A DNA stretch of 64,000 nucleotides from the human T2T-CHM13v2.0 reference genome, Homo sapiens: assembly GCF_009914755.1 (NCBI RefSeq), contig NC_060933.1; one strand, 5' to 3'. This document shows positions 1-47,541 of the stretch, one piece after another. Numbering within the stretch: position 1 is the first letter of the stretch; every line of letters begins with the position of its first letter. Both the position numbers and the translations under genes were made by a program. Under the pieces are notes generated by a model, which saw only the letters and a program-made list of their open reading frames with translations, was not told the origin of the DNA and searched no databases.

Positions 1-737
1 CAGTGGGTTAAAAATACAAATTTCAGTCAGATAGTTGAGAGGGGTTTTTTGGGTCTAGATAATTATAACTGAATTTTGTTATCTTAGATAATTTCTCTAA
101 TTGGATGTTCTAAATTTAGATTCTAAATTGATCAATTTTTGTGCACTGATGTGTCCTATTTAAGCTAATAGTACTTAAACTTAATGACTTATCTGACAGT
201 GAAGACAGTGATAACTGGGCAGTAGTACAGGAGTAGGGAGTATGGCAGAAAATTCTTACAGGGTCTTACATCTGGTATCCTGGAAAATTTTATCCTTTGG
301 AATCGGAAGTGAAGATGGAAAAAAATGTATTCATATGGTGAAGGTATTTGTCAATCAATCTATTTGTCTGTCTGTCTATGTCAGAATACCAGAAAGTAGG
401 GTTATATTGCTTCTTCCTTTCTTGAATACAGTCCTTCTGGTGGAATCAAAGACCACAGAAACTTTACTTGAGAAATTCCGTGATTTGAGCAGAGCCCACC
501 TATATCAATTCCATATATCTAGAATATTTTGGTGCAATTTAGCCTTCCATCTGCCATAAATGCTTGTTGGTCCTTGGGTTTTTTTTTTTATCTGCAAGTG
601 GGAATTGCCATGGCTATTAAATCATTAGAACATCTCTGAATGATGTAACATTACCTTTACTACTTACGCATTATGAAGAAATACCAAAAAGTATCATGGG
701 GCAATTTTAGGATAAACTATATAAAAAAAAAAGATTT

Positions 738-908
738 GGCCAGGTGCAGTGGCTCATGCCTGTAATTCCAATGCTTTGGGAGGCTGATTGCTTCCTAAAG
801 CGCTTGGGTGGATCACTTAAGCCCAAGAGGTCAAAGCATAGTGAGCTGCAATCGTGCCATTGCACTCTAGCCTGAGTGACACAGTGACACCCTGTCTCAA
901 AAAAAAAT
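738..908 (+). mobile_element. Old Alu monomer or deleted AluJ-like element
   Basis: GGCCAGGTGCAGTGGCTCATGCC start, AluJ-like right-arm end, A tail. Confidence 0.8.
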
Positions 909-1253
909 TTTTTTTTTTTTGAAGGTAAAACTAATGGAAAGAGGTTGAGAAAATGGTATGCCAGTTGAGACACTATGGTTTAATGGAAAGATTAGTTGAT
1001 TCAGAACTCACTGTACAGGATTCTAATTCTGTCTCTGCTGCTAACAAATTGTGTGGCTTTGGGCAGATTACTCAATCATATGTCTCCATGTTGTCATTGT
1101 TAAAGATGAAATATTGAATTAGATGATCTTGAAGGTCCCTTCTGGTTCTTAAGCTTATGCAGTCATGTGCATGTGCACATCCAACCCCTCCAAAATAAAG
1201 AAAATAGGCCTGATTATTCAAATGATTTGAACTTTAAAGCTATTTACATATAA

Positions 1254-1481
<228 letters not shown>

Positions 1482-1612
1482 TAGAATTACTCTATCTCTG
1501 AACTTTCATATTTCTTTCACATGATTTGTATTTTTTAGCCCATCTAATTTTAAAAAGAAGGTTGGTGTGGCATTACACAATTTATTCTCAGTTTGTGGTT
1601 CTTTAATTATAG

Positions 1613-1816
<204 letters not shown>

Positions 1817-1960
1817 TAATGAATCATTACTAATTTTTAATTCCTTTAAAACATTTTCTTGATGTCATTTGGGCCCTCTTAATTTCTTATGTTCATATGG
1901 CTTTTCATGCTTTATACATATTCTAATCTCCTTGACTGAGAATTATTTTCATTTTTATAA

Positions 1961-2273
<313 letters not shown>

Positions 2274-2773
2274 AAAAAGACCTTTTCTTTCAGTAACCTA
2301 ATTTTAGTTTTCCATTTAGTGAGTTGTAAATTATAGTATTTTTTTTTTTGCTTAAATTGACTTTTAAAAAACAATTCTCTTTAACATTTCTCATATTTTA
2401 TAATTGATTGATTTTCTAAACATGAGCTGTATTTGTTTTGCTTTGTTCTCTCCTTTTTCAAAATACTGAGCTGAAATGCATGTGTTTGACCTATAGGTGC
2501 TTTCTACCCCAGTACTACTCACCTTTCTCACAATAAGTATCAGTATATTACCTTACTTTATGAATACTAAAACTTCTTATTTTGGAAAACAAAATTTTAT
2601 CCTTTGCAAAGTCTCTCTTGAAGGCCTGTCAGATTATGGGTAATGATTAAAGGCTCCCATTAATATAATTGAAACTATTTGAGTTTCCCTGTATCATTTA
2701 GTATTTTTAACTCACGATTATTTTGGTCAACTTGAATGTATATCAGTTTAGTCCAGAGAATGTTATTTGCTAA

Positions 2774-2965
<192 letters not shown>

Positions 2966-3115
2966 TAGAGTATAATCATTTCATTTAGGAAAAACTTAAG
3001 AGCGTTTCTAAAGTTCACTTTCTACAACATTTTAAGGAGTGCTTGTAGAAAAAAAAGGTTTGGTTGTCAGATGTTGGAGAAATGCTGTGTTAAATAAACA
3101 GCTATCTTTACTGAA

Positions 3116-4079
3116 TGAAGGGGGCCAGCCCCTCCACACCTGTGGGTAATTCTCGTCAGGTGGGACCAGAGACTGAGAAAAGAAATAAGACACAGAGACA
3201 AAAGTATAGAGAAAGAAAAGTGGGCCCAGGGGACCAGTGCTCAGCATATGGAGGACCCGCACCAACACTGGTCTCTGAGTTTCCTCAGTATTTATTACTG
3301 TTTTCACTATCTCAGCAAGAGGAATGCGGCAGGAGAGCAGGGTGATAGTGGGGAGAAGGTCAGCAAGAAAACATGTGAGGAAAGGAATCTGTGTCACAAA
3401 TAAGTTCAAGGGGAGGTACTATGCCTGGATGTGCACATAGGCCAGATTTATGCTTCTCTCCACCCAAACATCTCAGTGGAGTAAAGAATAATAAAGCAGC
3501 ATTGCTGCCAACATGTCTCGCCTCCCGCCACAGGGCAGTTTTTCTCCTATCTCAGAAATGAACAAATGTATAATTGGGTTTTATACCGAGGCATTCAGTT
3601 CCCAGGGGCAGGCAGGAGACAGTGGCCTTCCTCTTTTACTAATCCTCCCCAGCACAGACCCTTCACGGATGTTGGGCTGGGGGACGGTCAGGTCTTTCCC
3701 ATCCCACGAGGCCATATTTCAGACTATCACATGGGGAGAAACCTTGGACATTACCCGGCTTTCCAGGGCAGAGGTCCCTGCGGCTTTCCGCAGTGCATTG
3801 TGTCCCTGGTTTATTGAGACTGGAGAATGGCGATGACTTTTACCAAGCATACTGCCTGTACACATTTTGTTAACAAGGCACATCCTACACAGCCCTAGCC
3901 TTAAACCTTGATTCCATACAACACATATTTTTGTGAGCTTCAGGTTGGGGCAAAGTTACAGATTAACAGCATCTCAGGGCAAAGCAATTGTTCAGGGTAC
4001 AGATCAAAATGGAATTTCTTATGTCTTCCTTTTCTACATAGACACAGTAACACACTGATCTCTCTTTCTTTTCCCTATA
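3116..4079 (-). mobile_element. HERV-K (HML-2) solo LTR, older LTR5A/B type
   Basis: 964 bp; LTR5-type termini; 6-bp TSD ACTGAA at 3110-3115 and 4080-4085; subfamily assigned from memory. Confidence 0.85.
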
Positions 4080-5762
4080 ACTGAAGAACTTTTCAGAGGC
4101 TTTAACATGTAATGTGCATGAACATCTTCAAGAGGAAGATGAATTAGGCAGTATTATTCAAATTGACTTGACCAAGAGACTGTTCCTTGGTAGCAGGAGT
4201 TCATTGTTAAGTGATTCAGTGAAATACAGAAAGGAATACATAAGCTTTTCTGCCTGCCTTTCTGCCTTTAGTTATCTCAGGGAGAATTAATCTTATTGCT
4301 TAGGGTCTAGGATTTTGACTGTGCCATATTCACTAGCAGAGACTCTGTCTATTAAAACGTCACACAGTCATGTATAACCTACATATTATAAGTAAGACCA
4401 GGGAATGCTCAGTTCTTAGTAGGTCCAACCATAGTGGTAAGCTCTTTCTCGCATAAGCTTGCTAGGATAAGGTTCTCACTAGTAAGTACCATGTTAGTGT
4501 TGTCTGTTATTATCAGCTATTCCTAAATTCATATTTTCCTGAAATATCTCCAGATGTCATTGATTTTCCTCTTTTCTGGGAACTTATAGCATTTATTGTT
4601 TCTTTTATACAATTTAATCACAGTCTTCTGTTGTTTATTAGATCTTGGTTTTTGTTTGCTTGCCCTTTTTTTCCTTGACTTAAAAAAAGTTCCTTTAGAT
4701 CCCAATAGATTACCAGGCACACAATTTTGTCATATATTGTCAAAACAATGGAATATATACTGGTATTTAAGAAGTAGACATAACAAAGAATACATCAAAA
4801 GATCACTAATTTAGATTAACAAAAGGGAAACAGCAGACTAAATTATAAAGTTATCTTTTCAAGTAATTTTTTCTAGTTATGAAAGTGATATACTGCTTAT
4901 AGAGAAATTGGAAAATATTACAATGAAGATACGTTCCATTTGTTGTAGTCTCTGCACAACTACACAATTTCTTTCAATAGTGAAACCATTCTATATATAC
5001 AATTCTATATCTTGCTATTTTTCATATATCAAGATTTTCCCATTATTAATATTCTTTTGAGACATAATTTTAAGTGAATATACCATAATTTATTTACAAC
5101 ATTCCCCTTTATTGTAATTTTGAGTTAATTTTCTTTTGCTTTTTAACATTTTTAGTGTTTTCCATAGTTCCGTGAGCTTAAAATTCTTTTAAACATAAGT
5201 AAATTGAAGAGACTCTAAGGAAGGCGTTTTCAAAATACATGTACAATGAAATATATTTCTTAGTAATTTAGTTTGTAGGAAATGAAAGGTAAATGGTGTA
5301 ATCATTAGTCAGTCATAGATATTTTAATGTGGATATTTCCTATCTGTATTTAACACCATAATTTTACTTTCATCTTTGTTTGTTTGAAGTAATTGATGTG
5401 TTCAGTGGTTTGTCTAGATATTTGTACTGCCTTACTGAAACAATCAAAATGCCATTCCTACAAAAATGATTGCATGTCACCTTTCCATTTTATAAAAATT
5501 AGCTACTGTATCCCTTTGTTATCCTTTTCAATTAGTGGTATGGTGAAAATATTCCAAAGAGGGATATATATTTAAAATTATTTTCATATGTTTTAAGCCA
5601 AGAGAAATAATGGTATATTTTTTTATTTTTTAAAAAATATTTTCATACTGTTGTAAAAGGAGCCAAGAAACTATTGTGAAATCTTTTCTTTTGCTATTTG
5701 AAATCTAGAGTGTTTTTTGCTTTCTTCCTTTATCCTCATGCCCACATATACTTATATTCTTT

Positions 5763-7384
5763 TTTAAATTAATTTTAACATGGATTATTTGTGTAATAGC
5801 CTTACATGTGGATATTAACAGTGTAAACAGTACCACATATAACCATCAAGACACCTCAATTAGAATTTATAGGACTAGAATGACAGATTCAGATGGTTTA
5901 ATTACATTTAAAAAGTTATCTGAAAAAACTTTTGCAATAAAACAAATTGCCCATCAATAAGTTTGATATCTTTTAAAATGATTTTTGGTTATCTGCACAT
6001 GAAGCAAACAAAGTGTATTCCACAAAATTCTTAGGCACAGTCTGAGATAGCTGCCAGAAAGAACAGAAAGAGTTGTCATTTATGTCTTGTGAGTACAATT
6101 TCTGAAAGTTGAATGAGGGCGTCTCTTTCTGGGGATGAGAAGTTTACTGCTCTCTCTTATTGCTTCATGGCAGTACTGCTGGGCAAGGTAGGTTGTTTGT
6201 TTTACACCATCACTCTGTAATACATACTGTGGAGCTCTGTCTACATCTCCCGGCAAACTGAACCATCTCATGATCATAGCATTCATTTCTGGGAACTGCT
6301 GACAGGCAAATAGGACAGGACCAGTGGCTAACCTGAGATTCACATCAGCTGATGTTGGTTTGCCTATGTTAGAACATGAGGTGAAGTCGAATACATCATC
6401 TATTAGCTGAAAAGCTATTCCTACATTTTTTCCGTACTGATAGGTGATCTCATGCACCACTGGGTCGGGGCATCCTAGAACAGAGACTGCTTTACAATTG
6501 TTGGCTATCAGGCTCGCAGTATTCTTGAAGGTCTTTTCAAGGTATTGTGCAAATCTCTCATGCTCATTTTCTTTTGACCCGAGCTGAAGAAATTCACCAC
6601 ACACCAAATCTTCAATAACTCGGGTTAAAATAGATATAACAGCTGTATTTCCAGTTTGTGCCCCACCTATAGATACTACAGAAAGAATTAAATCTCCAGC
6701 AAGGACAGCCTTCTTTTCACCCCAGATCTTGTGTGTTTTCCTTTTCGAGAACGTGCATTATCAATAACGTCATCGTGAACAAGACTAGCAGTGTGGATCA
6801 TTTCTGCAATTAAGGCTGTGGCGCGCTGGCTAGCTTGCACATGTCGGGAGTTATTATGATGAATATTACATGCTCGGGCCATTAGTACCACAATAATTGA
6901 TCGAAAGGCTTTTCCTTTTACATCAAAGTAGTACTCAGACATTTCCTTAAGTTCTGTTGTTGATATGAGCGGTTCCTTTCTAATACCCTCATACAGACCT
7001 TTCAAGTCTCTCCAACCGAGTTTGAAAGGATCGGTGTATTTCTCACCACTGTGTGTTTTGCTGTACGGGGTTGTGTGATGAAACTGTGATATACTATATA
7101 CATTTGGACAGGCAGGTGTTAAATGCTTCACAAGATTAAAATAGGGTATCTGAGACAAGTCAAGTCCCTTCTGCCTATGAGCCTGCGCGGGCATCGGCAG
7201 CGGCGCGCGGCCCCGGCGGCCCCGCAAGGCTCGGGGAGCGGTCTCCACGCCGCCGGTCTCCAGCAACAGCCGCGCCGCCCCCGCCACCAGCGCGAGGCCA
7301 CGGTCGGAGTCTGAAAGTCGCGGTAGGATGGTGGCTCCGCCTCTGGCCCGCGATCCTCCTGCCAGGACCTGGAGCCTGAAACCT
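5763..7384 (-). pseudogene. PDSS1P1: PDSS1 (decaprenyl diphosphate synthase subunit 1) processed pseudogene
   Basis: Intronless CDS remnant 7301-6076 with LVHDDVID and FQLIDD motifs, ATG changed to GTG, frameshifts; TSD CTTATATTCTTT at 5751-5762 and 7385-7396. Confidence 0.93.
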
Positions 7385-8198
7385 CTTATATTCTTTATAT
7401 CCTTTACCTTCTCGCTTCACTCCTAGCGGTTTTGAAATCCTCTTTATTCCTTTTTCCTCCATGGTGCAGATATGGGATTCAGAGATCAGGATCTTAGTGC
7501 GACTACTTTGAAATTATCAGCATCATTCTCAATCTTCTCTGAATATGATTCTTATTTTCCTCTCTTCCCATCATTAGCTAACATCTTGGTCCACATTCCT
7601 TGAATACTTTTAGTACTCATTGTTTTCTCATCACCTTACCTCCTGCCATTATTTTGGATGCCCTTCCAATACTTAAAAAAAAAATTCCTTGGCTTCTCTA
7701 CCCCAAAGTTATGATTATGTTAAATGAGTTCCTTTGAACTCTATAATCCCATGTAATAACCTTACTTAGAAAATTTCCTACCCTGAAATCTCCCTGTCTG
7801 ACTATAACTTTATAGCCTTTGGCTTTTTTCAACATAAATGCCTTCTTTTTGATATCTTTGGTATTGCTAGTGTCTTTCACACTTTCTTCTTATTGGAACG
7901 TAAATTGGTGACCCTTTCTAGAGAGCTTCTCATAGAGCAGTTTGTATCAAGCGCGTTTAAATGTTCATATCTTTTAAACTACTTTCGCTGGTATCCACAA
8001 TTATATCACCCCCCCTTCCCTTGATTATCTGCTTCACTTTCCCTATTATTTCCTAGTACGGGAACAATACAACTTAGCATTTTTAAATTGTGCTTCCATC
8101 CCTCAAACACTAAAAGAAAAAAATCAGATATAAATCTTTATTGTTTTCATTGAAAATTGGTTTCCAACATTGGTTAGGCACTTATGACTCTTACTGGT

Positions 8199-8555
8199 TG
8201 TATTAGTCTGTTCTCACGCTGCAAATAAAGACATACCCGAGACTGGGTAATTTATAAAGGAAAGAGGTTTAATTGACTGACAGTTACCCATGGCTGGGGA
8301 GGCCTCAGGAAACTTACAGTCATGGCAGAAGGCACCTCTTCACAGGGCAGCAGGAGAGAGAATGAGTGCCAGCAGGAGAAATGCCAGATGCTTACAAAAC
8401 CATCAGATCTCATGAGAACTATCACGAGAACAGCATGGAGGAAACCACCCGCATGATTCAGTTGCCTCCCACCAGGTCCTTCCAATGACATGTGGGGATT
8501 ATGGGGTTTACAATTCAAGATGAGATTTGGGTGAGGACAATGCCAAACCATATCA
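8199..8555 (-). mobile_element. THE1/MST-type MaLR solo LTR
   Basis: TGTATTAG...CCATATCA termini; 5-bp TSD CTGGT on both sides. Confidence 0.9.
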
Positions 8556-9684
8556 CTGGTAGTTCTTTTACTCTCCCTTACTTGATTTCTTTTCTGGTCC
8601 TATCTCAAACCCTTCTGGTTTTCTATCTTAAATCTTTCTTTTCGCTGTATTTTTCTTCATCTCCTTCTTCCATAAGAAAAATAGAGGCATTCCGAATTAA
8701 AAGTGAGACTGATTTTTGCCTATCAAAGTGACAAGGATTTAGAAAAAGTATAATGATCATTGTTGGCAGGGATGTGATAAAATATACATTTTCCCACTGC
8801 TTATTGGAACATCAAATGGTAACCACTGCCAGACAGCTTCTAATGCAGTGTGTATCAAGTCCCTTTGAAATGTTCTTATCTTTTGAACAGCTAATTAAGT
8901 ATCCTTAATAGAGATGTACACAAATATTTATTTATAAGAATATTATTGCAATGACATGACTGTATTTAAAAATTTTTCTTAGTGTACATTTATGTTTCCA
9001 ATGTTAAAATTAGTGCATTCGTGTGACAATATACAATAATTAAAAATTATTAATTTCAAGGAATATATAGTGGCACTAGAAAATAAATTTTATGAACACA
9101 TTGTTAAGTAGAGGGGAAGAAGATAAAACTTATTTCCTACTTTTGTTTTCTAAAATGTGTTTTGGAATAATTTCTCACAACAGCCTCATGAGATAGACAT
9201 TTTATTATTCTCCACTTTAAGGATGAAAAACCTCATTTTAGGGAGTTCTGAATTGTCCGCGGTCACAGAGAGAGCAAGTTGTGGATCAATATTCTAGTTC
9301 CAATCTGACTTGAGAGTCCTGGGTCTTGAGAGTCCTGGGTCTATCCACCTTATTGTGTGGCCTTCTAAACTGTGTAATTAAGAGATTTAACTTTGAGCCT
9401 ACATGGTCTAGGTTTTTTAAAAAACTGACTTCAAGTATATAACTGAAAATATAGTCACTTAGAATCTTGTAACTCAAGAACTACATTGTTTTATCCTGTA
9501 AGAATGCAATAATATCCAAAATACACTAATTTGATTAATATCAAAAACCTATACTTTATTTAAATGTTATAGCAACTTACCAATTCTATGTACTTAATGA
9601 GTTTTAGGTAAAAAGAGTGGATTTCTTTAAAGACATCTTCAAAAAAAAAATGTAGAGTCATCCCATAGGCTAAAAGTTTCTTAC

Positions 9685-10062
9685 TTCTTAATTTGCTTTG
9701 GCTGCTATAACAAAATACCATAGACTGGGTAGCTTAAACATCAGACATTTATTTCTTTGAATTCCAGGGCCTGGAAAGTCTGAGATCAAAGTTCTGGCAG
9801 GGATTGGTTTCTAGTGAGGTTTCTTCTTGGCTTGCAGATGGCCATCTTCTTGCTGTGTCCTCACATGGGAGAGAGAGATTGCTCTAATGTCTCTTCCTCT
9901 TATAAGGGCACTAGCCTTGTCACATTAGAGTTCCACCCTTATAACCTAATTTAACTTTTATCACCTCCTCACAAGGCCCTATCTCCAAATACAGTCATAA
10001 TGGGGGTTAAGGCTTCATTATATAAATTTTGGGTAAGGGGTCACTGACATTTAGCCCATAAC
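9685..10062 (-). mobile_element. MLT1-type MaLR LTR
   Basis: GCTGCTATAACAAAATACCATAGACTGGGTAGCTTAAACA...CCATAACA; ends approximate. Confidence 0.7.
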
Positions 10063-10354
10063 AGACACATTCCATCCAGATCACTGACAGTGATAGCAAA
10101 AGGTATTTTGTAAAAAAGGAAAATTCTTCCTGGAAGTTAGTGACAAAAGTTTAGGAATCCTCAGCATGTCCCTTGGCTTATCTTGACAATTAATGCTCAT
10201 CATTTATTTAAATGCTTTTTTGAAGTAATTTATATTTCAGCCTATAATTCCTTTTGAAGAAATTAAATTTACAGATTTACTACCCACCTGTTGAGATAGT
10301 ATTTCCTTTTCTTGTTCTAAGAGTTCCTTAATATAAGCTTAAAGATAGTCTGCT

Positions 10355-10673
<319 letters not shown>

Positions 10674-10762
10674 CTACTAGAATTTTCTATATAATTATAA
10701 AATTTATTTGTAATTTGCCTTGAAAACTTGGTATTTCCATCCTAATGTGATGTGTCATTTAG

Positions 10763-11008
<246 letters not shown>

Positions 11009-11506
11009 TAATATAAATGTACAATGTCTTAACGATCTGGACTTATGCCAATGCCCAGAGGGAGAGGCATTCTATAATGACTAGAGATTGTGTTTGGTGA
11101 TCATAGACTATAACTATAGGAAGTATTTGGCTAGTTGGTTAAACATTCTTTTCACCTCTTGCTTAAGCTTACCAAGAAAGTATCATTTTTAAAGGAATTG
11201 TTTTTGTTTACATTTTCTATAAAAATATTTTTGAATTCAATGTTTTTTGTTCGATATCAATGAGGAGAAAGGAAGTTTTCTCATCAGTTTATTTTGGTTT
11301 GCCTGAAGAGTTATAGAAAACTGAAACGCAAATAGTTTCAAAGCTTTTATTCATTCAAAAGTTTTTGATTCAAAAAGACTATGTTCTTAACAACTATATC
11401 ACCTTTAATGTATAATAAAGTTTTGTCATCTTAGATTTCATATATGTTTAAGTCATTTATGTATGATAGTTTTCTAATATTTAATCAGTATAATATGGCA
11501 GAGTAA

Positions 11507-11689
<183 letters not shown>

Positions 11690-11827
11690 TGAAGCAACCG
11701 TGTTGAAGTAGACATTAGGAAATCATCTAGACGTTTTCATAGATAATAAAGGGAATATATAGGGTTAAGACCATTTAAATTGTTTATATTTATAAAACTA
11801 GCTGAAAGAAAAATGTTTTATCCATAG

Positions 11828-12001
<174 letters not shown>

Positions 12002-12092
12002 TGAGTATATTTCAGTATGATATATGAAATTTTAGAGCACAGACTTCAAACTTTATTGTTATTTAATAGTTTGCCATTTCTATATTTACAGT

Positions 12093-12107
12093 AACAGTGA
12101 ACATTTA
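12093..12107 (+). repeat. Left copy of 15-bp direct repeat (putative TSD of the composite insertion)
   Basis: AACAGTGAACATTTA, identical to 37123-37137. Confidence 0.9.
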
Positions 12108-12144
12108 AGTCTTTTAAGTCTTACATTTAACTTTTTTTTTTTAG

Positions 12145-13169
12145 GTCTTATAGTCATGGTTATAGTCCACGTGGGAAAATGGCATATGCTTTATTTCTAT
12201 TAAGTGTTGTCTTATTTATAGGGATTGTAGGTTTTTCTTCAAAACTGTCTCCTATTTATTGAGGCTTAGGGGTAATTATTAGTGGTGCTGTGGGTTGTGG
12301 TATTGTGTTGAATTTTGGTGGGGCTTTCATGGGGTTAATAGTCTTTTTTATTTACTTGGGTGGTATAATGGTTATTTTTGGTTATACTCCAGTGATAGCT
12401 ATTGAGGAGTATCCTGAAACATGAGGGCCAAGTACTGATATTTGAGGGGCCTTATTATTAGGATTATTAATAGAGTTGATACTGGTTTGGTGAATAGTTG
12501 AATATGATGGGGTGGTGATCACGGTTGATTTTAATAGCATAGGGAGTTGATTTAATTTTTGAGGGGGAGGGGTTGATTCATGAGGATTTTGTAGGTGCAG
12601 CTGCCTTGTATAATTATGGGTGTTGGTTGGTGGTTGCTGGTTGATCATTGTTAGTATTTTTGTCGCAATTGAAATTACTCAGGGTAATAGATTAGATAAT
12701 TAATAGTAGAGTTTAGGCCTTTTTGGTCAGATACAGTAATGGAGGCTGAAGTTTGGGTTCGTGAAATGGTTTTTGGTATAGACTTTTCTAGTCAAACTGG
12801 GTCTAGTAGAAGTGAAGCTAGATTTTGGCTTATGAATAGGCTTAAGTCGGGGGGCTGAATGGTGAATTGTAGCTGAATAAAAACCTAGTATACTGGAGAA
12901 GTTAAATGTCTATAATGGGTACTTTAAGGTTGTTAGTTATGAAATTAAGCTCTATTGCTAGTAAGAGACCTAGGGTGGTTACACCTAGGGCTGTGAGCTT
13001 TAGGTGGAGTGGTATAGTTGTTTGGGGGGATGAAGTAGGGATAATACTGTTAGTGATGAGGAATCCGGCGAAGATACTGCCGATTGCTAGGTGCTGAACT
13101 GAGTTAATTCGGAGAGGATTATCATTAATAACAATCAGAATTGTAAAACAAGGTTGTCCTATTACAGCA
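12145..13169 (+). pseudogene. NUMT, inverted block: partial tRNA-Glu, ND6 (12179-~12691, +) and 3' part of ND5 (-)
   Basis: ATGGCATATGCTTTATTTCTATTAAGT matches ND6 start (MAYALFLLSV); reverse-complement ND5 follows up to 13169. Confidence 0.92.
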
Positions 13170-15184
13170 CCTAAGGTTATAAAGTAAGCACAAGTAAATA
13201 CATAAAAACGTTAGGTCAACGTGTAGCTCATGAGGTGGCAAGAAATGGGCCACATTTTCTACCCCAGAAAATCTCACGACAACCTTTATGAAATCTAAGG
13301 GCTCAAGGAGGATTTAGCAGTAAACCAAGAGTAGAGTGCTTGGTTGAGTTTGAATAAGGCCACGAAGCACGCACACACTGCCTGTCACCCTCCGCAAATA
13401 TCATTCTAGAAATATTATTTAAATTCTCTATACATGAATAGAGGAGATAAGTCGTAATATGGTAAGTGTACTGGAAAGTGCTCTTGGACAAACAAAGTGT
13501 CGCTTAACCCAAAGCATCCAGCTTACACCCGGAAGATTTCATCACAACCTGATCACTTTGAGCCAACCCTAGCCCCAAACCTCACTAAAAATACTATTAA
13601 ACCATCGTAATCAAACCATTTACCTTAGACAAAAGAATAGGCAATAGAAATTCTTATCTTGGCACAATAGATACAGTACCGTAAGGGAAAGATGAAAGAA
13701 CTGAGCAAAGACAAGCCCTTATACCTTCTGCATAAAGTATTAAGTAGAAATAACTTTACACAGAGATAGCCAAGTCCCCCGAAACCAAATGAGCTATGCA
13801 AGAATGGCTGAAAGAGCGTACTCACCTACGTGGCAAAATAGTGGGAAGATTCATGAGTAGTGGTGATAAGCCTATCAAGCCTGCTGATAGCTGGTTGTCC
13901 AAGATAGAATCTTAGTTCAGCTTTAAACTTACCCACAGAATTACTTAATCTCCCTGTAAGTTTAACTGTTAATCTAAAGAGGGACAGCTCTTTAGACCCT
14001 AGGAACCAACCTTCCTACAGAGAGTACAAAATAACATCGCCATAGTTGGCCCAAAAGCAGCCAACAATTAAGAAAGTGTTCAAGCTCAACATCCAAGTAT
14101 CTTAAATTCTAATCACTCTACGGAACTCCTAACATTACACTGGTCTAATCTATTATTTAATAGAAGCAATAATGTTAATATAAATAACATGAAAATATTC
14201 TCCACCGCATAAGCTTACATAAGACTGGAATAACCCACTGACTGACAGTTAACAGCTAGATATTTTACAATAACCATCCTATTATTTATACTGTTAATCC
14301 AACACAGGCATGCTCTAAGGAAATATTACAAAAAGTAAAAGGAACTCGGCAAATCTTACCCCACCTGTTTACCAAAAACATCACCTCTAGCATTACCAGT
14401 ATTAGAGGCACTGCCTGCCCAGTGACATATGTTCAACGACCACCATATCCTGACCTTGCAAAGGTAACATAATCACTTGTTCCCTAAATAGGGACTTAGA
14501 AGAATGGCCACATGAGGGTTCAGCTGTCATGAGGGTTCAGCTGTCTCTTAAGTTTAATCAGTAGAATCTGACCTATTGGTGAAGAGGAGCTTATAAGCAA
14601 ATAAGATGAGAAGACCCCATGGCACTTTAATTCATTAATGCAAATAAAAACTCAAAAAGCCTATAGGCCTTAACCTACTATCTCTGCATTAAAAATTTTG
14701 GTTGGGGTGACCTCATAGCATATTCAACCTCCGAACAACCTAAACTAAGACCACAGTAGTCTAAGCGAGTTAATACACATTGACCCAATAATTTGATCAA
14801 CAGAACAAGTTACCCTAGGGATAACAGTGCAATCCTATTCTATCATATCAATAATAGGGTTTACGACCTCGATGTTGGATCAGGACATCCTAATGGTGTA
14901 GCCGCTATTAAGGGTTCATTTATTCAATGATTAAAGTCCTATGTGATCTGATTTCAGACCAGAGTAATCCAGGTTGGTTTCTATCTGTTTAACATTTCTC
15001 CTAGTATGAAAGGACAAGAGAAATACGGCCCACTTCATAAAGTGCCCTCCCCCCATAAATGATGCTATCTCAATCTAGGAAATCACCACACACCCAAGAA
15101 CAGGGTTTCTTAAGATGGCAGAGCCTGGCAATAGCATAAAACGTAAAACTTTACAATCAAAGGTTCAACTCCCCTTCTTAACAA
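13170..15184 (+). pseudogene. NUMT: 3' part of 12S rRNA, tRNA-Val (13493-13561), 16S rRNA, tRNA-Leu(UUR)
   Basis: Conserved motifs GGAGATAAGTCGTAA, CCTGTTTACCAAAAACATCACC, ACGACCTCGATGTTGGATCAGG. Confidence 0.95.
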
Positions 15185-15185
15185 T

Positions 15186-17348
15186 ATGCCTATAATTAAC
15201 CTTTTCCTACTTATATTCCCACTCTAATTGCTATAGCATTCCTTACACTTAACAGTTACGCAAAGGACCTAATACCGTAGGCCCCTGTGGACTGCTTCAA
15301 CCATTTGCTGACCCAATAAAACTTTTCACCAAAGAACCCTTACGACCCTCAACGTCTACTGTTACCCTTTATATCATTGCCTCCAACCCTGGCCCTTTCT
15401 ATCACCCTCCTCTTCTGGACTCCCCTTCCTATACCCCATCCCCTAATTAATTTTAATATAGGCCTCTTATTTATTCTAGCCACATCAAGCCTAGCAGTCT
15501 ATTCCATTCTATGATCAGGATAAGCATCCAATTCAAATTATGTACTAATCGGCACACTACGAGCTGTGGCCCAGACAATTTCATATGAAGTCACCCTAGC
15601 CATTATCCTGCTATCACTACTACTACTAAGTGGCTCAACTTATACGCATGCATCACAATGCCAGAATTACTCTGACCGCTCCTACCATCATGACCCTTAG
15701 CCATATTATGATTTATTTCCACACTAGCAAAAACTAACCGAGCCCCTTTTGACTTAACAGAAAGAGAATCAGAACTAGTTTCAGGCTTCAATGTCGAATA
15801 TGCTGCAAGTTCATTTGCCCTCTTCTTTATAGCAGAATATATGAATATTATTGTATAAATGCCCTGACTACTACTATTTTTCTAGGAGTACTACACACTA
15901 TGTATTCACCAGAACTCTGTACCATAAATTTCATTACCAAGACCCTCCTTTTAACCACCGTTTTTATGAATCCGAACAGCATACCTCCAATTCCACTACA
16001 ACCAACTCATATACCTTTTATGAAAAAATTTCCTACCACTTACATTAGCATTCTGCATATATCTCAATGCCTTTCCTAATTTCCAGCATTCCACCCCAAA
16101 CATAGGAAATATGTCTGACAAAAGAATTACTTTGATAGAGTAAACAAGAGAGGTTAAAATCCTCTTATTTCTGGAACTATCGGAATTGAACCTATCCCTG
16201 AGACTCCAAAATTCTCCATGCTACCTATTAAACCATATCCTAAAGTAAGTTCCGCTAAATAAGCTATTGGGCCCATACTCCTGAAAATGTTGGTTATACC
16301 CTTCCCATACTAATTAATCCATTAGCTCAACTTATTATCTCTCTTACTATTTTCACAGGAACCCTCATCACAATGCTACGCTCACACTGATTTCTTATCT
16401 GAACAGGCCTAGGAATAAATATAGTAGTTCTTACCCCCATCTTGATTAAAAAAACAAATCTCCACTCTACAGAAGCAGCCACCAAATATTTTCTTACACA
16501 AGCAACTGCATCTATAATTCTCATGATGGGTATCCTTTTCAACAACCCGTCCTCCGGGCAATGGACAATAATAAACACTACTAATCAATTTTCATCCTTA
16601 ATAATAACAGCCCTAGTAATAAAACTAGAAATAGCCCCCTTTCACTTCCGAGTCCCAGAAGTAACCCAGGGAACTTCTCTAATGTCTGGCATACTTCTCC
16701 TCACATGACAAAAACTAGCCCCTATCTCAATTATATTTCAAATTTTCCCATCAATAAACACGACCAGTCTCCTATCTATCACAATCCTATCCATTAACGT
16801 AAGCGGTTGAGGAGGACTTAATCAAACACAATTCTGCAAAATCTTAACCTACTCCTCAATTACTCATATAGGTTGAATGATCCCAGTACTAACTTATAAT
16901 CCAAACGTTACCATTATAAATCTGATTATTTACCTTATTTTAACAACTACCACATTTCTAGCACTTAGCCTAAGTATAAGCACTACAACCCTGTCACTGT
17001 CTCACACTTGAAACAAATTAACATGATTAACACCTATAGTTTCACTAATTCTACTATCCCTAGGAGCTTTACCTCCATTAACAGGATTTCTGCCTGAATG
17101 AGTCATCATTCAAGAATTTTCAAAAAACAATAGTCTTATTACCCCAACCATTATAGCTATCATAACACTACTCAACCTGTAGTTTTATATATGCCTAATT
17201 TACTCCATCTCAATGACAATATTCCCCACATCCAATAATACGAAAATAAAATGACAATTCAAAAACACAAAACCCATATTACTCCTCCCTCCACTTATTT
17301 CTTCTACCTTCCTCTTACCCATCTCTCCACTGATTCTAGTTATAACTT
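15186..17348 (+). pseudogene. NUMT: ND1, tRNA-Ile/Gln/Met, ND2
   Basis: ND2 peptide [16 protein letters not shown]; ND1 TNRAPFDL; mitochondrial gene order; indels and stops. Confidence 0.93.
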
Positions 17349-17740
17349 AGAAATTTAGGTTAAATAAGACCAGGGACCTTCAAAACCCTTAGTAAATGAA
17401 TTATACTTAATTTCTGTAACAAACCCAAGGACTGCAAAACTCTATTCTGCATCAGTTGAACGCAAATCAACCACTTTAATTAAGCTAAGTCCTTGCTAGA
17501 TCGGTGGAATTCAAACCCGCAAAAATTTAGTTAACAGCTAAATACCCTAATCAACTGGCTTCAATCTACTTCTCCCTCCATGTGGGGGGAGGGTGGTAGG
17601 CCGGAGAAGCCCTGGCAGCATTGAAGCTGCTCCTTTGAATTTGCAATTCAACATAAAAAATTACCTCAGGGCTGGTAAAAAGAGGTCTTGACCTCTGTCT
17701 TTAGATTTACAGTCCAATGCTTACTCAGCCATTTTACCCT
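17349..17740. pseudogene. NUMT: WANCY tRNA cluster with light-strand origin remnant (17569-17609)
   Basis: tRNA-like sequences in mitochondrial order; CTTCTCC...GGAGAAG stem. Confidence 0.88.
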
Positions 17741-17751
17741 TTTTTCCACTT

Positions 17752-20487
<2,736 letters not shown>

Positions 20488-20489
20488 GA

Positions 20490-22003
20490 ATGCCTCAACT
20501 AGATACTTCCACATGATCCATTATTATCCTGTCAATAATCATAACTTTATTCTCCATTATTCAGTTAAAATTATTAAATTTCATTTATATTATCCCTACA
20601 CCAAAAATAATCAAAACACAAAAACACAAGGCTTCCTGAGAATTAAAATGAACGAAATCTATTCATCTCTTTTGCTACCCCTACAATTCTAGGCCTACCA
20701 GCAGTAGTATTAATCATTCTGTTTCCCACTGTTTCCAACCTCTAGTCATCAAATTAGTAACCAATTATTTTCTATTCAACGATGATTAATCCAACCTGCA
20801 CTAAAACAGATAATAATTACCCATAACATTAAAGGACAAACCTGATCCCTTATAATAATATCCCTAATTATCTTCACTGCCTCAACCAACCTCCTTGGGC
20901 TTCTACCCCATTCATTTACACCAACTATCCAATTATCAATAAACCTGGGTATAGCAATCCCCCTGTGAGCAGGCGCAGTAATTACAGTCTTCTGCTTTAA
21001 AACGAAAAACTCCTTGGCTGGCTTTTTACCACAAGGCACACCTATGCCACTTATCCCTATACTAGTAATCATTGAAACCATTAGCCTATTTATTCAACCA
21101 ATAGCATTAGCTGTGCAATTAACAGCCAACATTATAGTCAGTCATCTACTAATACATTTAATTGCAGGAGACACACTAGTACTATTAGCTATTAGTTTTC
21201 CCACAGCTTCAGTTGCTTTTATTATTCTAATCCTACTGACTATTCTCAAATTCGCCATAGACCTTATTCAGGCTTATGTCTTCACACTACTAGTAAGCCT
21301 TTATCTATATGACAACACATAATGACCCACCAAACACATGCTTGCCATATAGTCAAACCCAGCCCCTGACCACTAACAGAAGCTCTCTCAGCTCTACTAA
21401 TAACATCTGGCCTGGCCATGTGATTTCACTTTAATTCTACTACTCTTTTAACCCTAGGCCTATTAATCAACACACTAACTGTATACCAATGATGATGTGA
21501 TATTATCTGAGAAAGTAAATTTCAAGGCCACCATACAACAGTTGTCCAAAAAGGCCTCCAATATGGAATAATTCTATTTATTATCTCAGAAGTATTCTTC
21601 TTTGCTGGTTTCTTCTGGGCATTCTATCACTCTAGTCTAGCCCCAATGCCAGAATTAGGAGGACACTGACCCCCCAACAGGCATTTTTCCCCTCAAACGC
21701 TTAGAAGTACCTTCCTGAATACATCTGTATTATTTGCATCAGGAGTTTCAGTTACTTCGGCTCATCACAGCCTGATAGAAGGAAATCGAAAGCAAATAAT
21801 TCTAGCACTATCCATCACGATTACCTTAGGTATTTACTTCACCCTCCTACAAATCTCAGTACTTTGAGGCCCCTTTTACTATCTCTGATGGGATCTATGG
21901 CTCAACATTCTTTACAGCCACAGGCTTTCATGGATTTCATGTTATTATTGGATCAACATTTCTCACTATCTGCTTCCTCCGCCAATTAAAATATCACTTT
22001 ACA
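20490..22003 (+). pseudogene. NUMT: ATP8, ATP6 (20648-21322), 5' part of COX3
   Basis: ATP6 C-terminus LPQGTP...[18 protein letters not shown]; COX3 start MTHQTHA. Confidence 0.95.
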
Positions 22004-24304
22004 AGATGTCTGAATAGGAATAGCTCCAGTCTGCAGCTCCCAGCATGATCGACGCAGAAGATGGTGATTTCCGCATTTCCAACTGAGGTACCTGGTTCAT
22101 CTCATCGGGACTGGTTGGACAGGGGGTGCAGCCCACAGAGGGCAAGTTGAAGCAGGGCGGGGCATCACCTCACCCAGGAAGCACAAGGGGTCAGGGGATT
22201 TCCCTTTCCCAGCCAAGGGAAGCCATGACAGACTGTACCTGGAAAATCAGGACACTTTTGCCCAAATACTGTGCTTTTCCAACAGTCTTACCAAATGGCA
22301 CACCAGGAGATTATATCCCATGTCTGGCTTGGCAGGTCCCACACCCACGGAGCCCTGCTCACTGCTAGCACAGCAGCCTAAGATCCACCCATGAGGCAGC
22401 AGCCTGGCAGGCGGAGGGGCGTCCGCCATTGCTGAGGCTTGAGTAGGTAAACAAAGTGGCCAGGGAAGCTCGAACTGGGTGGAGCCCACCACAGCTCTGC
22501 AAGGCCTGCTGCCTTTGTAGACCACACCTCTGGGGGCAGGGCATAGCTGAAAAGGCAGCAGAAACTTCTGCAGACTTAAACGTCCCTGTCTGACAGCTCT
22601 GAAGAGAGCAGTGTTTCTACCAGCATGGTGTTTGAGCTCTGACAATGGACAGACTGCCTCAGGTGGATCCCTGATGCTTCTGTAGCCTAAGTGGGAGACA
22701 CCTCCCAGTAGAGGCCAACTGACACCTCATACAGGTGGGTGCCTGTCTGGGACGAAGCTTCCAGAGGAAGGATCAGGCAGCAACATTGGCTGTTCTGCAA
22801 TATTTGCTGTTCTGCAGCCTCCACTGCAGATACCGAGGCAAACAGAGTCTGGAGTGGACCTCCAGCAAACTCCAAGAGACCTGCAGCTGAGGGACCTGAC
22901 TGTTAGAAAGAAAACTAACAAACAGAAAGGAATAGCATCAACATCAACAAAAAGGGCATCCACACCAAAACCCCATCTGTAGGTTACCAGCACCAAAGAC
23001 CAAAAGTAGATAAAACCACAAAGATGGGGAGAAACCAGAGCAGAAAAGCTGAAAATTCTAAAAACCAGAGGGCCTCTTCTCCTCCAAAGGATTGCAGCTC
23101 CTTGCCAGCTGGATGGAGAATGACTTTGACGAGCTGACAGAAGTAGGCTTCAGAAGGTTGGTAATAACAAACTTCTCCAAGCTAAAGGAGGATGTTCAAA
23201 CCCATCGCAAGGAAGCTAAAAACCTTGAAAAAAGATTAGACCAATGGCTAACTACAATAAACAGTGTAGAGAAGACCTTAAATGACCTGATGGAGCTGAA
23301 AACCATGGCATGAGAACTACAGGACGCATGCACAAGCTTCACTAGCCGACTTGATCAAGTGGAAGAAAGGGTATCAGTGATTGAAGATCAAATTAATGAA
23401 ATAAAGCGAGAGGAGAAGTTTAGAGAAAAAAGAGTAAAAAGCAACAAGATAAAGCCTACAAGAAATACAGGACTATGTGAAAAGACCAAATCTACATTTG
23501 ATTGTTGTACCTGAAAGTGACGGGGAGAATGGAACCAAGCTGGAAAACACTCTTCAGGATATTATCCAGGAGAACTTCCCCGACCTACCAAGGCAGGCCA
23601 ACATTCAAATTCAGGAAATACAGAGAACTCCACAAAGATACTCCTTGAGAAGAGCAACCCCAAGACACGTAATTGTCATATTCACCAAGGTTGAAATGAA
23701 GGAAAAAAATGTTAAGGGCAGCCAGAGAGAAATGTCGGGTTGCCCACAAAGGGAAGCCCATCAGACTAACAGCGGATCTCTCAGCAGAAACTCTACAAGC
23801 CAGAAGAGAGTGGAGGCCAATATTCAACATTCTTAGAGAAAAAGACTTTTCAACCCAGAATTTCATATCCAGCCACACTAAGCTTCATAAGTGAAGGAGA
23901 AATAAAATCCTTTACAGACAAGCAAATGCTGAGAGATTTTGTCATTACCAGGCCTGCCTTACAAGATCTCCTGAAGGAAGCACTAAACATGGAAAGGAAC
24001 AACCAGTAGCAGCCACTGCAAAAACATACCAAATTGTAAAGACCATCGATGATAGGAAGAAACAGCATCAACTAACGGGCAAAATAACCAGCTAACATCA
24101 TAATAACAGGTTCAAATTCACACATAACAATATTAACCTTAAATGTAAATGGAATGAATGCCCCAATTAAAAAACACAAACTGGCAAATTGGATAAAGAT
24201 TGAAGACCCATCACTGTGCTGTATTCAGGAGACCAATCTCATGTGCAGAGAAACACATGGGCTCAAAATAAAGGGATGGAGGAAGATCTACCAAGCAAAG
24301 GGAA

Positions 24305-24336
<32 letters not shown>

Positions 24337-27300: not shown

Positions 27301-28107
27301 GATATGAACAGACACTTCTCAAAAGAAGGCATTTATGCAGCCAACAGACATATAAAAAATGCTTATCATCACTGGTCATCAGAGAAATGGAAATCAAAAC
27401 CACAATGAGATACCATCTCATGCCAGTTAGAATGGTGATCATTAAAAAGACAGGAAACAACAGATGCTGGAGAAGATGTGGCGAAATAGGAACACTTTCA
27501 CACTGTTGGTGGGAGTAGTGTAAACTAGTTCAACCACTGCAGAAGACAGTGTGGCGACTCCTCAAGGATCTAGAACTAGAAATACCATTTGACCCAGCCA
27601 TCCCATTACTGGGTATACACCCAAAGGATTATAAATCATGCTGCTATAAAGACACATGCCCATGTATGTTTATTGTGGCACTATTCACAATAGCAAAGAC
27701 TTGGAACCAATCCAAATGCCCATCAATGATAGACTGGATAAGAAAATATGCCACAAATATCCCAAGGAATACTATGCAGCCATAAACAAGGGTGAGTTCA
27801 TGTCCTTTGCAGGGACATGGATGAAGCTGGAAACCATAATTCTCAGCAAACTAGCGCAAGGACAGAAAAGCAAACACTGCATGTTCTCACTCATAGGTGG
27901 GAGTTGAACAATGAGAACACTTGGACACATGGCAGGGAACATCACACAAAGGGGCCCGGGGGAGGGATAGCATTAGGAGAAATACCTAATGTAAATGACG
28001 AGTTAATGGGTGCTGCAAATCAACATGGCACATGTATATCTATGTAACAAACCTGCACATTGTGCACATGTACCCTAGAACTTAAAGTATAATAAAAATA
28101 TATATAC
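22004..28107 (+). mobile_element. Full-length, inactivated primate L1 (L1PA5-7-like) inserted in NUMT COX3
   Basis: 5' UTR start CAAGATG..GAATAGGAA, ORF1 from 23024, ORF2 EN/RT remnants (FADD) with start mutated to ATA, 3' UTR and A tail; TT/AAAA site and TSD ATCACTTTACA at 21993-22003 and 28108-28118. Confidence 0.95.
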
Positions 28108-28118
28108 ATCACTTTACA

Positions 28119-44021: not shown

Positions 44022-45853
<1,832 letters not shown>

Positions 45854-47412: not shown

Positions 47413-47541
<129 letters not shown>

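What the first reader, a model, noticed from the sequence alone, without database searches (positions are those of the whole stretch)
12120..12262. Insertion-created splice acceptor would fuse JAK2 exon 22 in frame to ND6 transmembrane helix 1
Seen: TTTAAC-T11-AG|G at 12126-12145, 144 nt after the exon 22 donor, with a better pyrimidine tract than the real exon 23 acceptor (CATATATTTACAG). Splicing gives TG|G, preserving W1020, then SYSHGYSPRGK-MAYALFLLSVVLFIGIVGFSSKLSPIY* (38 aa, stop 12260-12262), in frame with the ND6 ATG at 12179. An AATAAA lies at 12876-12881. Inference: an intronically polyadenylated isoform would keep FERM-SH2-JH2, lose APE and the rest of the C-lobe (kinase-dead), and end in a ~20-aa hydrophobic tail-anchor-like segment, a possible dominant negative. 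The nearest branch-point candidate is rather close to the AG (~15 nt).
Basis: partly seen in the sequence, partly recalled or inferred. Interest (0 to 1): 0.72.

Follow-up and report, generated by a model that had tools for sequence, protein, structure and literature searches.

The report
Unproven cryptic splice site in JAK2
A run of eleven T's followed by AG at the edge of an old mitochondrial DNA insert in a JAK2 intron looks like a good splice acceptor and would add a short hydrophobic tail in frame, but nothing found here shows the cell uses it, and its features fit an ordinary silenced decoy site.

Summary
Every sequence fact in the finding holds. T11-AG|G lies at 12132-12145, 144 nt after the exon 22 donor. 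The W1020 codon (TG|G) is preserved, 38 further codons follow to a TGA at 12260-12262, and AATAAA lies at 12876-12881. The last 27 residues match ND6 residues 1-27.

Three refinements:
- The NUMT edge lies inside the T-run.
- The AG, the long T-run and the TGA are absent from 7 of 7 paralogous NUMT copies. They are private changes of this copy, not mtDNA sequence.
- A second branch-point-like motif sits 21 nt upstream.

Nothing shows that the isoform exists. Comparable acceptor-like sites number 24 of 2964 intronic AGs, 15 of them in intron 22. AATAAA occurs once per 780 nt. An unbroken U11 tract is the class that hnRNP C binds, blocking U2AF65 (PMC3629564). Ten paper searches found no report of this junction.

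Best reading: a decoy 3' splice site, silent or used only as noise (0.75). No RNA-seq was available, so conditional use as a terminal or poison exon stays open. Interest is low.

The parts
11828..12000 (+). JAK2 exon 22. It ends with TG of the W1020 codon; the donor is CTG|GTGAGT.
   Evidence: Hub gene table; sequence; donor matches 8 of 9 consensus positions; c.3059 numbering from PMC8059723.
12001..12144 (+). The 144-nt mini-intron that use of the cryptic acceptor would remove.
   Evidence: No unusual RNA structure over 11990-12290 (z = 0.00).
12104..12122 (+). Perfect 9-nt tandem duplication (TTTAAGTCT, 2.1 copies), on the host side just left of the NUMT edge.
   Evidence: Tandem Repeats Finder, 100% matches.
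12120..12131 (+). Two branch-point-like yUnAy matches: CTTAC with its A at 12123, 21 nt from the AG, and TTAAC with its A at 12130, 14 nt from the AG.
   Evidence: Motif scan. Motif match only; no lariat data.
12132..12142 (+). Continuous T11 tract. It is both the polypyrimidine tract of the candidate acceptor and a tract of the hnRNP C-binding class. The NUMT edge lies inside it.
   Evidence: Paralogous NUMTs carry 5-6 T's here. Identity to their consensus is 12 of 26 just left of the tract and 12 of 16, then 19 of 20, just right of it. U-tracts of 9 or more are the strongest hnRNP C sites (PMC3629564 passages).
12143..12144 (+). AG of the candidate 3' splice site, inside the mitochondrial tRNA-Glu-derived part.
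   Evidence: None of 7 paralogous NUMTs has AG here; they read CATAT, CATGT or TATAC.
12145..12262 (+). Would-be coding part of a cryptic exon: 11 codons from the tRNA-Glu remnant, 27 codons of ND6 and a TGA.
   Evidence: Translation. ND6 residues 1-27 match chain 5xtc_m at E = 1.6e-05, with 21 of 27 identical by my count of the printed alignment.
12179..12690 (+). MTND6P5, the ND6 pseudogene, in sense with JAK2.
   Evidence: Hub table. Its table-2 translation matches ND6 chains at 166 bits for the best chain. It holds two mitochondrial-code stops, AGG at codon 139 and AGA at codon 171.
12260..12262 (+). TGA that ends the extension. It is a private G-to-T change of a Gly codon, not an inherited mitochondrial Trp codon.
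   Evidence: 7 of 7 paralogs read GGA or GGG. The best solved ND6 chain has G at residue 28.
12876..12881 (+). AATAAA hexamer 731 nt after the candidate acceptor.
   Evidence: Background density is one per 780 nt on this strand.
13170..13172 (.). Junction between the inverted NUMT piece (tRNA-Glu remnant, ND6, 3' end of ND5; about 12138-13169) and the large forward piece that starts in 12S rRNA.
   Evidence: the two parts match other NUMTs on opposite strands in 3 loci (C1, C4, C8) but lie on the same strand here. Rfam SSU and LSU hits at 13376-13486 and 13687-15002. The piece has no second copy in the window.

Best explanation
The site is a decoy (pseudo) 3' splice site at the left edge of the known large NUMT in JAK2 intron 22. 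An inverted mitochondrial fragment (3' half of tRNA-Glu, ND6, end of ND5) was joined to the intron at a T-run. In this copy the run is 11 T's long, and a G stands where the paralogs carry T, which gives TTTAG|G. Because ND6 lies in sense with JAK2, the exon 22 phase happens to read through its first helix. I infer that the site is ignored or used only at noise level, for three reasons. The unbroken U11 tract is bound by hnRNP C, which displaces U2AF65. The nearest donor-like GT sites score no better than the weakest true donors, and the nearest AATAAA sits at background density. The pre-mRNA also carries many equal decoys that do not prevent normal JAK2 splicing. Shown here: the sequence anatomy, the NUMT edge, the private changes and the decoy counts. 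Inferred: hnRNP C binding and lack of use.
For: - Anatomy confirmed.
- The NUMT edge lies in the T-run. Identity to the consensus of 7 paralogs is 12/16, 19/20, 37/42 and 37/42 from 12143 rightwards, against 12/26, 12/30 and 13/30 to the left.
- The AG, T11 and TGA are absent from 7 of 7 paralogs.
- Decoys are common: 24 of 2964 intronic AGs are of equal class, 15 of them in intron 22.
- 12 runs of 9 or more T's lie on the + strand of 1..51022, and 5 of them have an AG within 3 nt downstream. Two of those carry the GAGATGGAGTCT / GAGACAGAGTCT context that I recall as typical of antisense Alu.
- AATAAA occurs once per 780 nt.
- Within 350 nt downstream, donor-like GT sites match at most 6 of 9 consensus positions.
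- hnRNP C binds most strongly to continuous tracts of 9 or more U's and displaces U2AF65 from U10 RNA in vitro, and interspersed C's relieve this (PMC3629564 passages). Long U-tracts keep new 3' splice sites cryptic (PMC5115870 passages).
- The one JAK2 transcript in the hub table has no exon here.
- No paper reports the junction or MTND6P5.
Against: - By simple motif measures the site equals or beats all 9 true JAK2 acceptors in the window. It has a pyrimidine at -3, a G at +1, a clean AG-exclusion zone and a branch-point motif at 21 nt.
- It is transcribed about 32 kb ahead of the true acceptor, which would favour it kinetically.
- My crude donor count does not separate weak from real donors: 2 of 8 true JAK2 donors also match only 6 of 9. 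Exon definition through 12226 or 12271 is therefore not excluded.
- Intronic polyadenylation in JAK2 is reported under CDK12/13 inhibition (PMC10161439 passage). The site is not stated in the text, and the figure that shows it is not held.
- I had no RNA-seq, CLIP or 3'-end data and no SpliceAI or MaxEntScan, so lack of use is inferred, not shown.
- The other 8 RefSeq JAK2 transcripts were not shown to me.
Confidence: 0.75

Rival explanations
1. Conditionally used alternative terminal exon. The acceptor is normally repressed, but it is spliced and polyadenylated near 12900 when repression fails, for example at low hnRNP C, under CDK12/13 or U1 inhibition, or with slow elongation. The mRNA would escape nonsense-mediated decay because the stop lies in the last exon. 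It would encode JAK2 1-1020 plus 38 residues: kinase-dead with a hydrophobic tail. This would be a by-product, not a selected function.
For: Strong acceptor motif. The stop at 12260 would lie in the terminal exon, and AATAAA is at 12876. JAK2 shows intronic polyadenylation with loss of downstream exons after THZ531 (PMC10161439 passage). hnRNP C-repressed exons appear on knockdown (PMC3629564). A JH1-truncated mouse Jak2 protein is detectable in spleen (PMC3783367 passage).
Against: The AATAAA is no more than background density predicts. The JAK2 polyadenylation site in PMC10161439 is not located in the text, and the supplements list JAK2 only by name. No junction or 3'-end evidence is at hand. 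From recall, U1 bound at the exon 22 donor 876 nt upstream should suppress this signal.
Confidence: 0.17
2. Low-level poison exon. The acceptor pairs with a weak donor at 12226 (ATT|GTAGGT, an 82-nt exon) or 12271 (GGG|GTAATT, a 127-nt exon). The exon shifts the frame or carries the TGA, so the transcript is degraded by nonsense-mediated decay and is invisible at steady state.
For: Both donors match 6 of 9 consensus positions, the same as 2 of 8 true JAK2 donors. Both exon lengths are typical and are not multiples of 3.
Against: Neither donor has the G at +5 or a good -2/-1 context. There is no evidence of inclusion. The same hnRNP C argument applies.
Confidence: 0.06
3. A selected, regulated dominant-negative JAK2 isoform that is membrane-anchored by ND6 helix 1.
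For: In-frame fusion to a 19-residue segment with mean hydropathy 2.52 and 8 residues after it. FERM-SH2-JH2 would be kept.
Against: The frame match is a 1-in-3 chance, and 4 of 15 equal decoys in intron 22 also read 30 or more codons. The stop and the AG are single private substitutions with no sign of constraint that I could test. The truncated kinase lobe lacks its core helices (inference). In the mouse K915X paper 'dominant negative' occurs 0 times, and the phenotype was reported in a second mouse line that the cut abstract does not name. There is no literature on such an isoform.
Confidence: 0.02
4. Recursive splice site. The AG|GT at 12143-12146 would be used as a zero-length exon to remove the 32-kb intron stepwise, leaving no trace in the mRNA.
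For: The site reads polypyrimidine-AG|GT inside a long intron.
Against: The regenerated donor would be CTG|GTCTTA, which by my own reading matches only 4 of 9 consensus positions. A first step that removes only 144 of 32,053 nt gives no benefit.
Confidence: 0.01

Closest known systems
hnRNP C-repressed cryptic 3' splice sites at the U-tracts of antisense Alu elements (Zarnack et al. 2013, PMC3629564; Attig et al. 2016, PMC5115870; passages read)
   Same: Inserted DNA supplies a long continuous U-tract directly ahead of an AG. The tract is both a potential polypyrimidine tract and, at 9 or more U's, a prime hnRNP C site that blocks U2AF65. The new 3' splice site arises by point mutation beside a long U-tract.
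   Different: The source is a NUMT junction, not an Alu poly(A) tail. Part of the tract comes from the tRNA-Glu remnant. hnRNP C binding here is inferred, not measured.
Disease-causing NUMT insertions that disturb splicing or coding. Examples are the 251-bp NUMT behind a factor VII splice-site mutation and NUMT insertions into exons of GLI3 and of the mucolipidosis IV gene, which I recall as MCOLN1 (review PMC2820518, passage read)
   Same: Mitochondrial DNA inside a nuclear gene changes, or could change, its splice signals or reading frame.
   Different: Those are recent insertions with a demonstrated effect on the transcript. This one is an annotated, reference-genome NUMT in a gene that splices normally, and no effect is shown.
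HSA_NumtS_329, the large NUMT in JAK2 (named in bioRxiv 10.1101/239053; the tRNA look-alikes in JAK2 pre-mRNA are noted in PMC4189335)
   Same: It is the same element. The finding sits at its left edge.
   Different: The passages I read in those papers describe the NUMT and its tRNA look-alikes, not a splice acceptor or a fusion frame.
C-terminally truncated JAK2 forms: mouse Jak2 K915X (PMC3783367) and the exon 14-skipped JAK2 isoform (review PMC10167241)
   Same: A JAK2 that lacks a working JH1 domain can be made and detected.
   Different: K915X is a germline nonsense allele and behaves as loss of function. Neither form has a hydrophobic tail or arises from intron 22.

Membership tests
U2-type 3' splice site (functional acceptor) | AG dinucleotide with a pyrimidine at -3, preceded by a polypyrimidine tract | tested here: met
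   TTTAG|G with 15 of 18 pyrimidines at -20..-3 and 12 unbroken pyrimidines abutting the AG. It equals or exceeds all 9 true JAK2 acceptors in the window.
U2-type 3' splice site (functional acceptor) | Branch point 18-40 nt upstream, with no AG between it and the acceptor | tested here: met
   CTTAC places its A 21 nt upstream, and there is no AG at -15..-3. Motif level only.
U2-type 3' splice site (functional acceptor) | An exon-definition partner: a downstream 5' splice site or poly(A) site | tested here: inconclusive
   Only 6-of-9 donor matches lie within 350 nt, but 2 of 8 true donors score the same. AATAAA lies 731 nt away, at background density.
U2-type 3' splice site (functional acceptor) | Spliced junction seen in RNA | not testable with these tools
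   No RNA-seq or junction database was available. The papers returned by ten searches (listings and matching passages) give no report.
hnRNP C-repressed cryptic exon | Continuous U-tract of 9 or more at the 3' splice site | tested here: met
   U11 at 12132-12142. The threshold comes from PMC3629564.
hnRNP C-repressed cryptic exon | hnRNP C crosslinking at the tract, and exon inclusion on HNRNPC knockdown | not testable with these tools
   No iCLIP or knockdown data. JAK2 occurs 0 times in the main text of PMC3629564 and of PMC5115870. Their supplements were not searched.
NUMT (nuclear copy of mitochondrial DNA) | Homology to mitochondrial genes in mitochondrial gene order | tested here: met
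   ND6 translation matches ND6 chains. There are 43 NUMT matches in the same genome, rRNA and tRNA hits, and the hub's pseudogene table.
Intronic polyadenylation isoform (alternative terminal exon) | Poly(A) signal with mapped cleavage sites | tested here: inconclusive
   The hexamer is present. No 3'-end data. The JAK2 polyadenylation reported in PMC10161439 is not located.
Tail-anchored membrane protein | A single hydrophobic segment within about 30 residues of the C-terminus | tested here: met
   A 19-residue window with mean Kyte-Doolittle hydropathy 2.52 and 8 residues after it. This is sequence geometry only. The distance criterion is recalled.
Tail-anchored membrane protein | Post-translational membrane insertion of an expressed protein | not testable with these tools
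   No evidence that the protein exists.

The most novel reading that the evidence does not exclude
The NUMT edge supplies a latent alternative last exon of JAK2. When hnRNP C occupancy or U1/CDK12-dependent suppression drops, exon 22 splices to 12145 and the transcript ends near 12900. The result is a stable mRNA for a kinase-dead JAK2 that carries the first transmembrane helix of ND6 as a C-terminal anchor and competes with full-length JAK2 at cytokine receptors. It would be a primate-specific, mitochondrion-derived brake on JAK-STAT signalling.
Probability: 0.04. Interest if true: 0.6.

Novelty: new member of a known kind. Interest (0 to 1): 0.2.

Why it matters
JAK2 is a major drug target and leukaemia gene, so a natural kinase-dead, membrane-tethered isoform would be of real interest. 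A NUMT that contributes coding sequence to a signalling protein would also be rare. On present evidence this is one more decoy splice site of the kind long human introns hold in numbers. Its main use is as a clean non-Alu test case for the rule that a continuous U-tract both makes and silences a new 3' splice site. It is also a place where a T-tract-interrupting variant or a splicing-factor defect might unmask aberrant JAK2 transcripts.

Tried and rejected
- ARAGORN on 11000-33000 found 0 tRNA genes, so the tRNA-Glu remnant is not a detectable tRNA. Rfam gave only the rRNA hits and two downstream tRNAs.
- The window's assembly holds 24 contigs and no mitochondrial genome. I could not align the NUMT to present-day mtDNA or date it, and used 7 paralogous NUMTs instead.
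- A possible extension of the NUMT to the whole tRNA-Glu left of the T-run was rejected. Identity there is 12 of 26 where the paralogs agree with each other at 0.86.
- RNA folding of 11990-12290 gave z = 0.00, so no structure hides or presents the site.
- An inverted repeat between the inverted NUMT piece and the forward piece, which could form double-stranded RNA, does not exist. The only hit was the piece itself.
- Recursive splicing was rejected because the regenerated donor is poor.
  - 'MTND6P5': 0 papers.
  - JAK2 with NUMT, intronic polyadenylation, cryptic exon, intron 22, isoform phrases, or HNRNPC plus cryptic: none of the listings, and none of the passages I read in the papers I opened, describes this junction.
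- Supplements of PMC10161439 list JAK2 only as a gene name. Its figure S11A is not held.
- I ran no MaxEntScan or SpliceAI because neither is installed. I used plain counts rather than a weight matrix recalled from memory.

Full report
**1. The observation**

Reading 11760-13260 and 43980-44240 confirms every coordinate in the finding.
- Exon 22 ends at 12000 with ...TTCTG, followed by gtgagt.
- TTTAAC lies at 12126-12131, an unbroken T11 at 12132-12142, AG at 12143-12144 and G at 12145.
- The distance from the donor is 144 nt.
- The true exon 23 acceptor reads catatatttacag|G at 44054.
- Translation of 11999-12265 shows SYSHGYSPRGKMAYALFLLSVVLFIGIVGFSSKLSPIY and then a stop in the frame that continues the split W codon.
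- The stop is the TGA at 12260-12262, and the ND6 ATG at 12179 is in that frame.
- AATAAA is at 12876-12881.
- W1020 is right. A variant table in PMC8059723 gives c.3059+23 in intron 22, so c.3059 is the last exon 22 base and the second base of codon 1020.
- The 27 ND6-derived residues match residues 1-27 of solved ND6 chains (best chain 5xtc_m, E = 1.6e-05; 21 of 27 identical by my count of the printed alignment). I recall 5xtc as human complex I; the tool gives no organism.

**2. What the element is**

The window's own assembly holds 43 matches to 12050-13400, all of them other NUMTs. It has no mitochondrial contig.

I aligned the window to 7 paralogous NUMTs (L002-L008) that run on through tRNA-Glu into the cytochrome b side.
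- Identity of the window to their consensus is 37/42, 37/42, 19/20 and 12/16 going left from 12262 to 12143.
- Identity is 6/11 inside the T-run.
- Further left it is 12/26, 12/30 and 13/30, although the paralogs agree with one another at 0.86-0.92 in those columns.

The NUMT edge therefore lies inside the T-run, and the mitochondrial part begins in the tRNA-Glu remnant.

Three features that make the finding are private to this copy:
- The paralogs have 5-6 T's, not 11.
- 0 of 7 have AG after the run. They read CATAT, CATGT or TATAC, so a G in place of a T makes the AG.
- 7 of 7 have GGA or GGG where the window has TGA. The best solved ND6 chain has Gly at residue 28.

The stop is therefore a G-to-T change, not an inherited mitochondrial Trp codon. 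'Insertion-created' is half right: the insertion brought the tract's right half and the ND6 frame, and changes private to this copy made the acceptor and the stop. Whether those changes arose before or after insertion cannot be told without outgroup genomes.

The piece from about 12138 to 13169 is inverted relative to the large forward piece that starts in 12S rRNA.
- In three other NUMTs (on C1, C4 and C8) the two parts lie on opposite strands. Here they abut on the same strand.
- The inverted piece has no second copy in the window.

The NUMT itself is known. It is named HSA_NumtS_329 in JAK2 (bioRxiv 10.1101/239053, passage), and its tRNA look-alikes in JAK2 pre-mRNA are noted in PMC4189335 (passages).

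**3. Is the acceptor more than chance?**

By plain counts it is a good site.
- It has 15 of 18 pyrimidines at -20..-3 and 12 unbroken pyrimidines abutting the AG.
- It has T at -3 and G at +1, with no AG at -15..-3.
- It has two yUnAy matches.
- The 9 true JAK2 acceptors in the window have 9-15 of 18 pyrimidines and runs of 0-7.

It is not unique.
- Of 2964 intronic + strand AGs in 1..51022, 24 meet the same class: at least 15 of 18 pyrimidines, a pyrimidine at -3 and a clean exclusion zone. Fifteen of them lie in intron 22. Three of the 24 also have G at +1. Eight of the 2964 have a run of 10 or more pyrimidines.
- Twelve runs of 9 or more T's lie on this strand of the JAK2 part, and 5 of them are followed by AG within 3 nt.
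- AATAAA occurs 82 times on the + strand of the window, one per 780 nt, so one at 731 nt is what chance gives.
- The 38-codon open extension is not special either. Among the 15 equal sites in intron 22, 4 read 30 or more codons in the exon 22 phase: 39, 82, 30 and 49.

**4. Would it be used?**

I could not test this directly. No RNA-seq, CLIP or 3'-end data and no SpliceAI or MaxEntScan were available.

Indirect points against efficient use:
- The tract is continuous U11. In the passages I read, the strongest hnRNP C sites are continuous tracts of 9 or more U's. hnRNP C displaces U2AF65 from U10 RNA in vitro, while interspersed C's protect U2AF65 binding. Knockdown unmasks cryptic exons (PMC3629564). 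New 3' splice sites are reported to stay cryptic while a long U-tract sits beside them (PMC5115870). A 'better pyrimidine tract' made only of U's is thus not a better acceptor in vivo.
- Exon definition is weak. Within 350 nt downstream the donor-like GTs match at most 6 of 9 consensus positions. This crude score does not settle the matter, because 2 of 8 true JAK2 donors also score 6.
- From recall, U1 bound at the exon 22 donor 876 nt upstream should suppress the AATAAA.
- No RNA structure stands out (z = 0.00).

Points for use:
- The motif is strong.
- The site has a 32-kb head start over the true acceptor.
- Intronic polyadenylation with loss of downstream exons is reported in JAK2 after the CDK12/13 inhibitor THZ531 (PMC10161439 passage). 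The text does not say which intron, the supplements name JAK2 only in gene lists, and figure S11A is not held. That figure may bear on the claim.

**5. Consequences if used**

As a terminal exon, the stop would lie in the last exon, so the mRNA would escape nonsense-mediated decay. It would encode residues 1-1020 plus 38 residues.
- The kinase lobe would end just before APE and would lack the rest of the C-lobe. It would be inactive, by inference from kinase architecture.
- The best 19-residue window of the tail has mean hydropathy 2.52 with 8 residues after it, a tail-anchor-like geometry.

As a cassette exon through 12226 or 12271 (82 or 127 nt, neither a multiple of 3), it would be a decay target.

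On dominant negativity, mouse Jak2 K915X gives a detectable 95-kDa inactive protein (PMC3783367 passages). [quoted passage not shown] Jak2+/- mice were analysed alongside it. 'Dominant negative' occurs 0 times in the text.

**6. Literature**

- 'MTND6P5': 0 papers.
- JAK2 with NUMT: 35 papers.
- JAK2 with intronic polyadenylation: 29.
- JAK2 with cryptic exon: 45.
- JAK2 with intron 22: 18.
- JAK2 isoform phrases: 37.
- JAK2 with HNRNPC and cryptic: 12.

I saw listings for all of them, and the passages that matched my search terms in the papers I opened. None describes this junction, an exon in the NUMT or a JAK2-ND6 fusion. Papers outside the held library and the supplements I did not open remain unseen.

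**7. Verdict**

The conditional reading is correct. The claim that an isoform exists or acts is unsupported. The most likely state is a silenced decoy 3' splice site of the U-tract class, here made at a NUMT edge rather than in an Alu (0.75). Conditional use as a terminal exon (0.17) or as a poison exon (0.06) remains open. A selected dominant-negative function is unlikely (0.02).

Noticed in passing
window 12138-13169 versus 13173-31817: The JAK2 NUMT is two pieces of one mitochondrial genome joined head to head. A roughly 1-kb inverted piece (tRNA-Glu remnant, ND6, last 471 nt of ND5) abuts a forward piece that runs from 12S rRNA to ND5. The two ND5 fragments (471 and 1232 nt) do not overlap and together nearly make up one ND5 (about 1.8 kb; gene length recalled). 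As a result all annotated mitochondrial pseudogenes lie in sense with JAK2.
   Followed up: partly
window 12104-12122: A perfect 9-nt tandem duplication (TTTAAGTCT, 2.1 copies) lies on the host side, 10 nt from the T-run. ACATTTAA also recurs at 12101 and 12123. These may be a footprint of the repair event that captured the mtDNA. The duplication also supplies the CTTAC branch-point-like motif.
   Followed up: partly
window 12023: Intron position +23 after exon 22 is T in this assembly. PMC8059723 lists c.3059+23A>T (rs2274649, minor allele frequency 0.29), so this genome appears to carry the minor allele.
   Followed up: no
window 1973-1992, 19784-19797, 34253-34278: Other long T-runs (20, 14 and 26 T's) are directly followed by AG-containing contexts on the JAK2 sense strand. 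Two have the GAGATGGAGTCT / GAGACAGAGTCT context that I recall as typical of antisense Alu. One lies inside the NUMT region and one inside the TCF3P1 span of the hub table. They are cryptic-acceptor candidates of the same class as the finding.
   Followed up: no
window 31924-35959: Per the hub table, the pseudogenes TCF3P1 and IGHEP2 lie directly after the NUMT in the same intron. Intron 22 thus holds three unrelated captured DNAs in a row.
   Followed up: no
window 11000-33000: ARAGORN finds no tRNA gene in the NUMT. In the 5-kb stretch 11500-16500 that I scanned with Rfam, the tRNA model scores two NUMT tRNA copies, at 16105-16173 (43.3 bits) and 15109-15183 (22.7 bits, below gathering). PMC4189335 singles out JAK2 pre-mRNA as one of the two transcripts with the most tRNA look-alikes.
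   Followed up: partly
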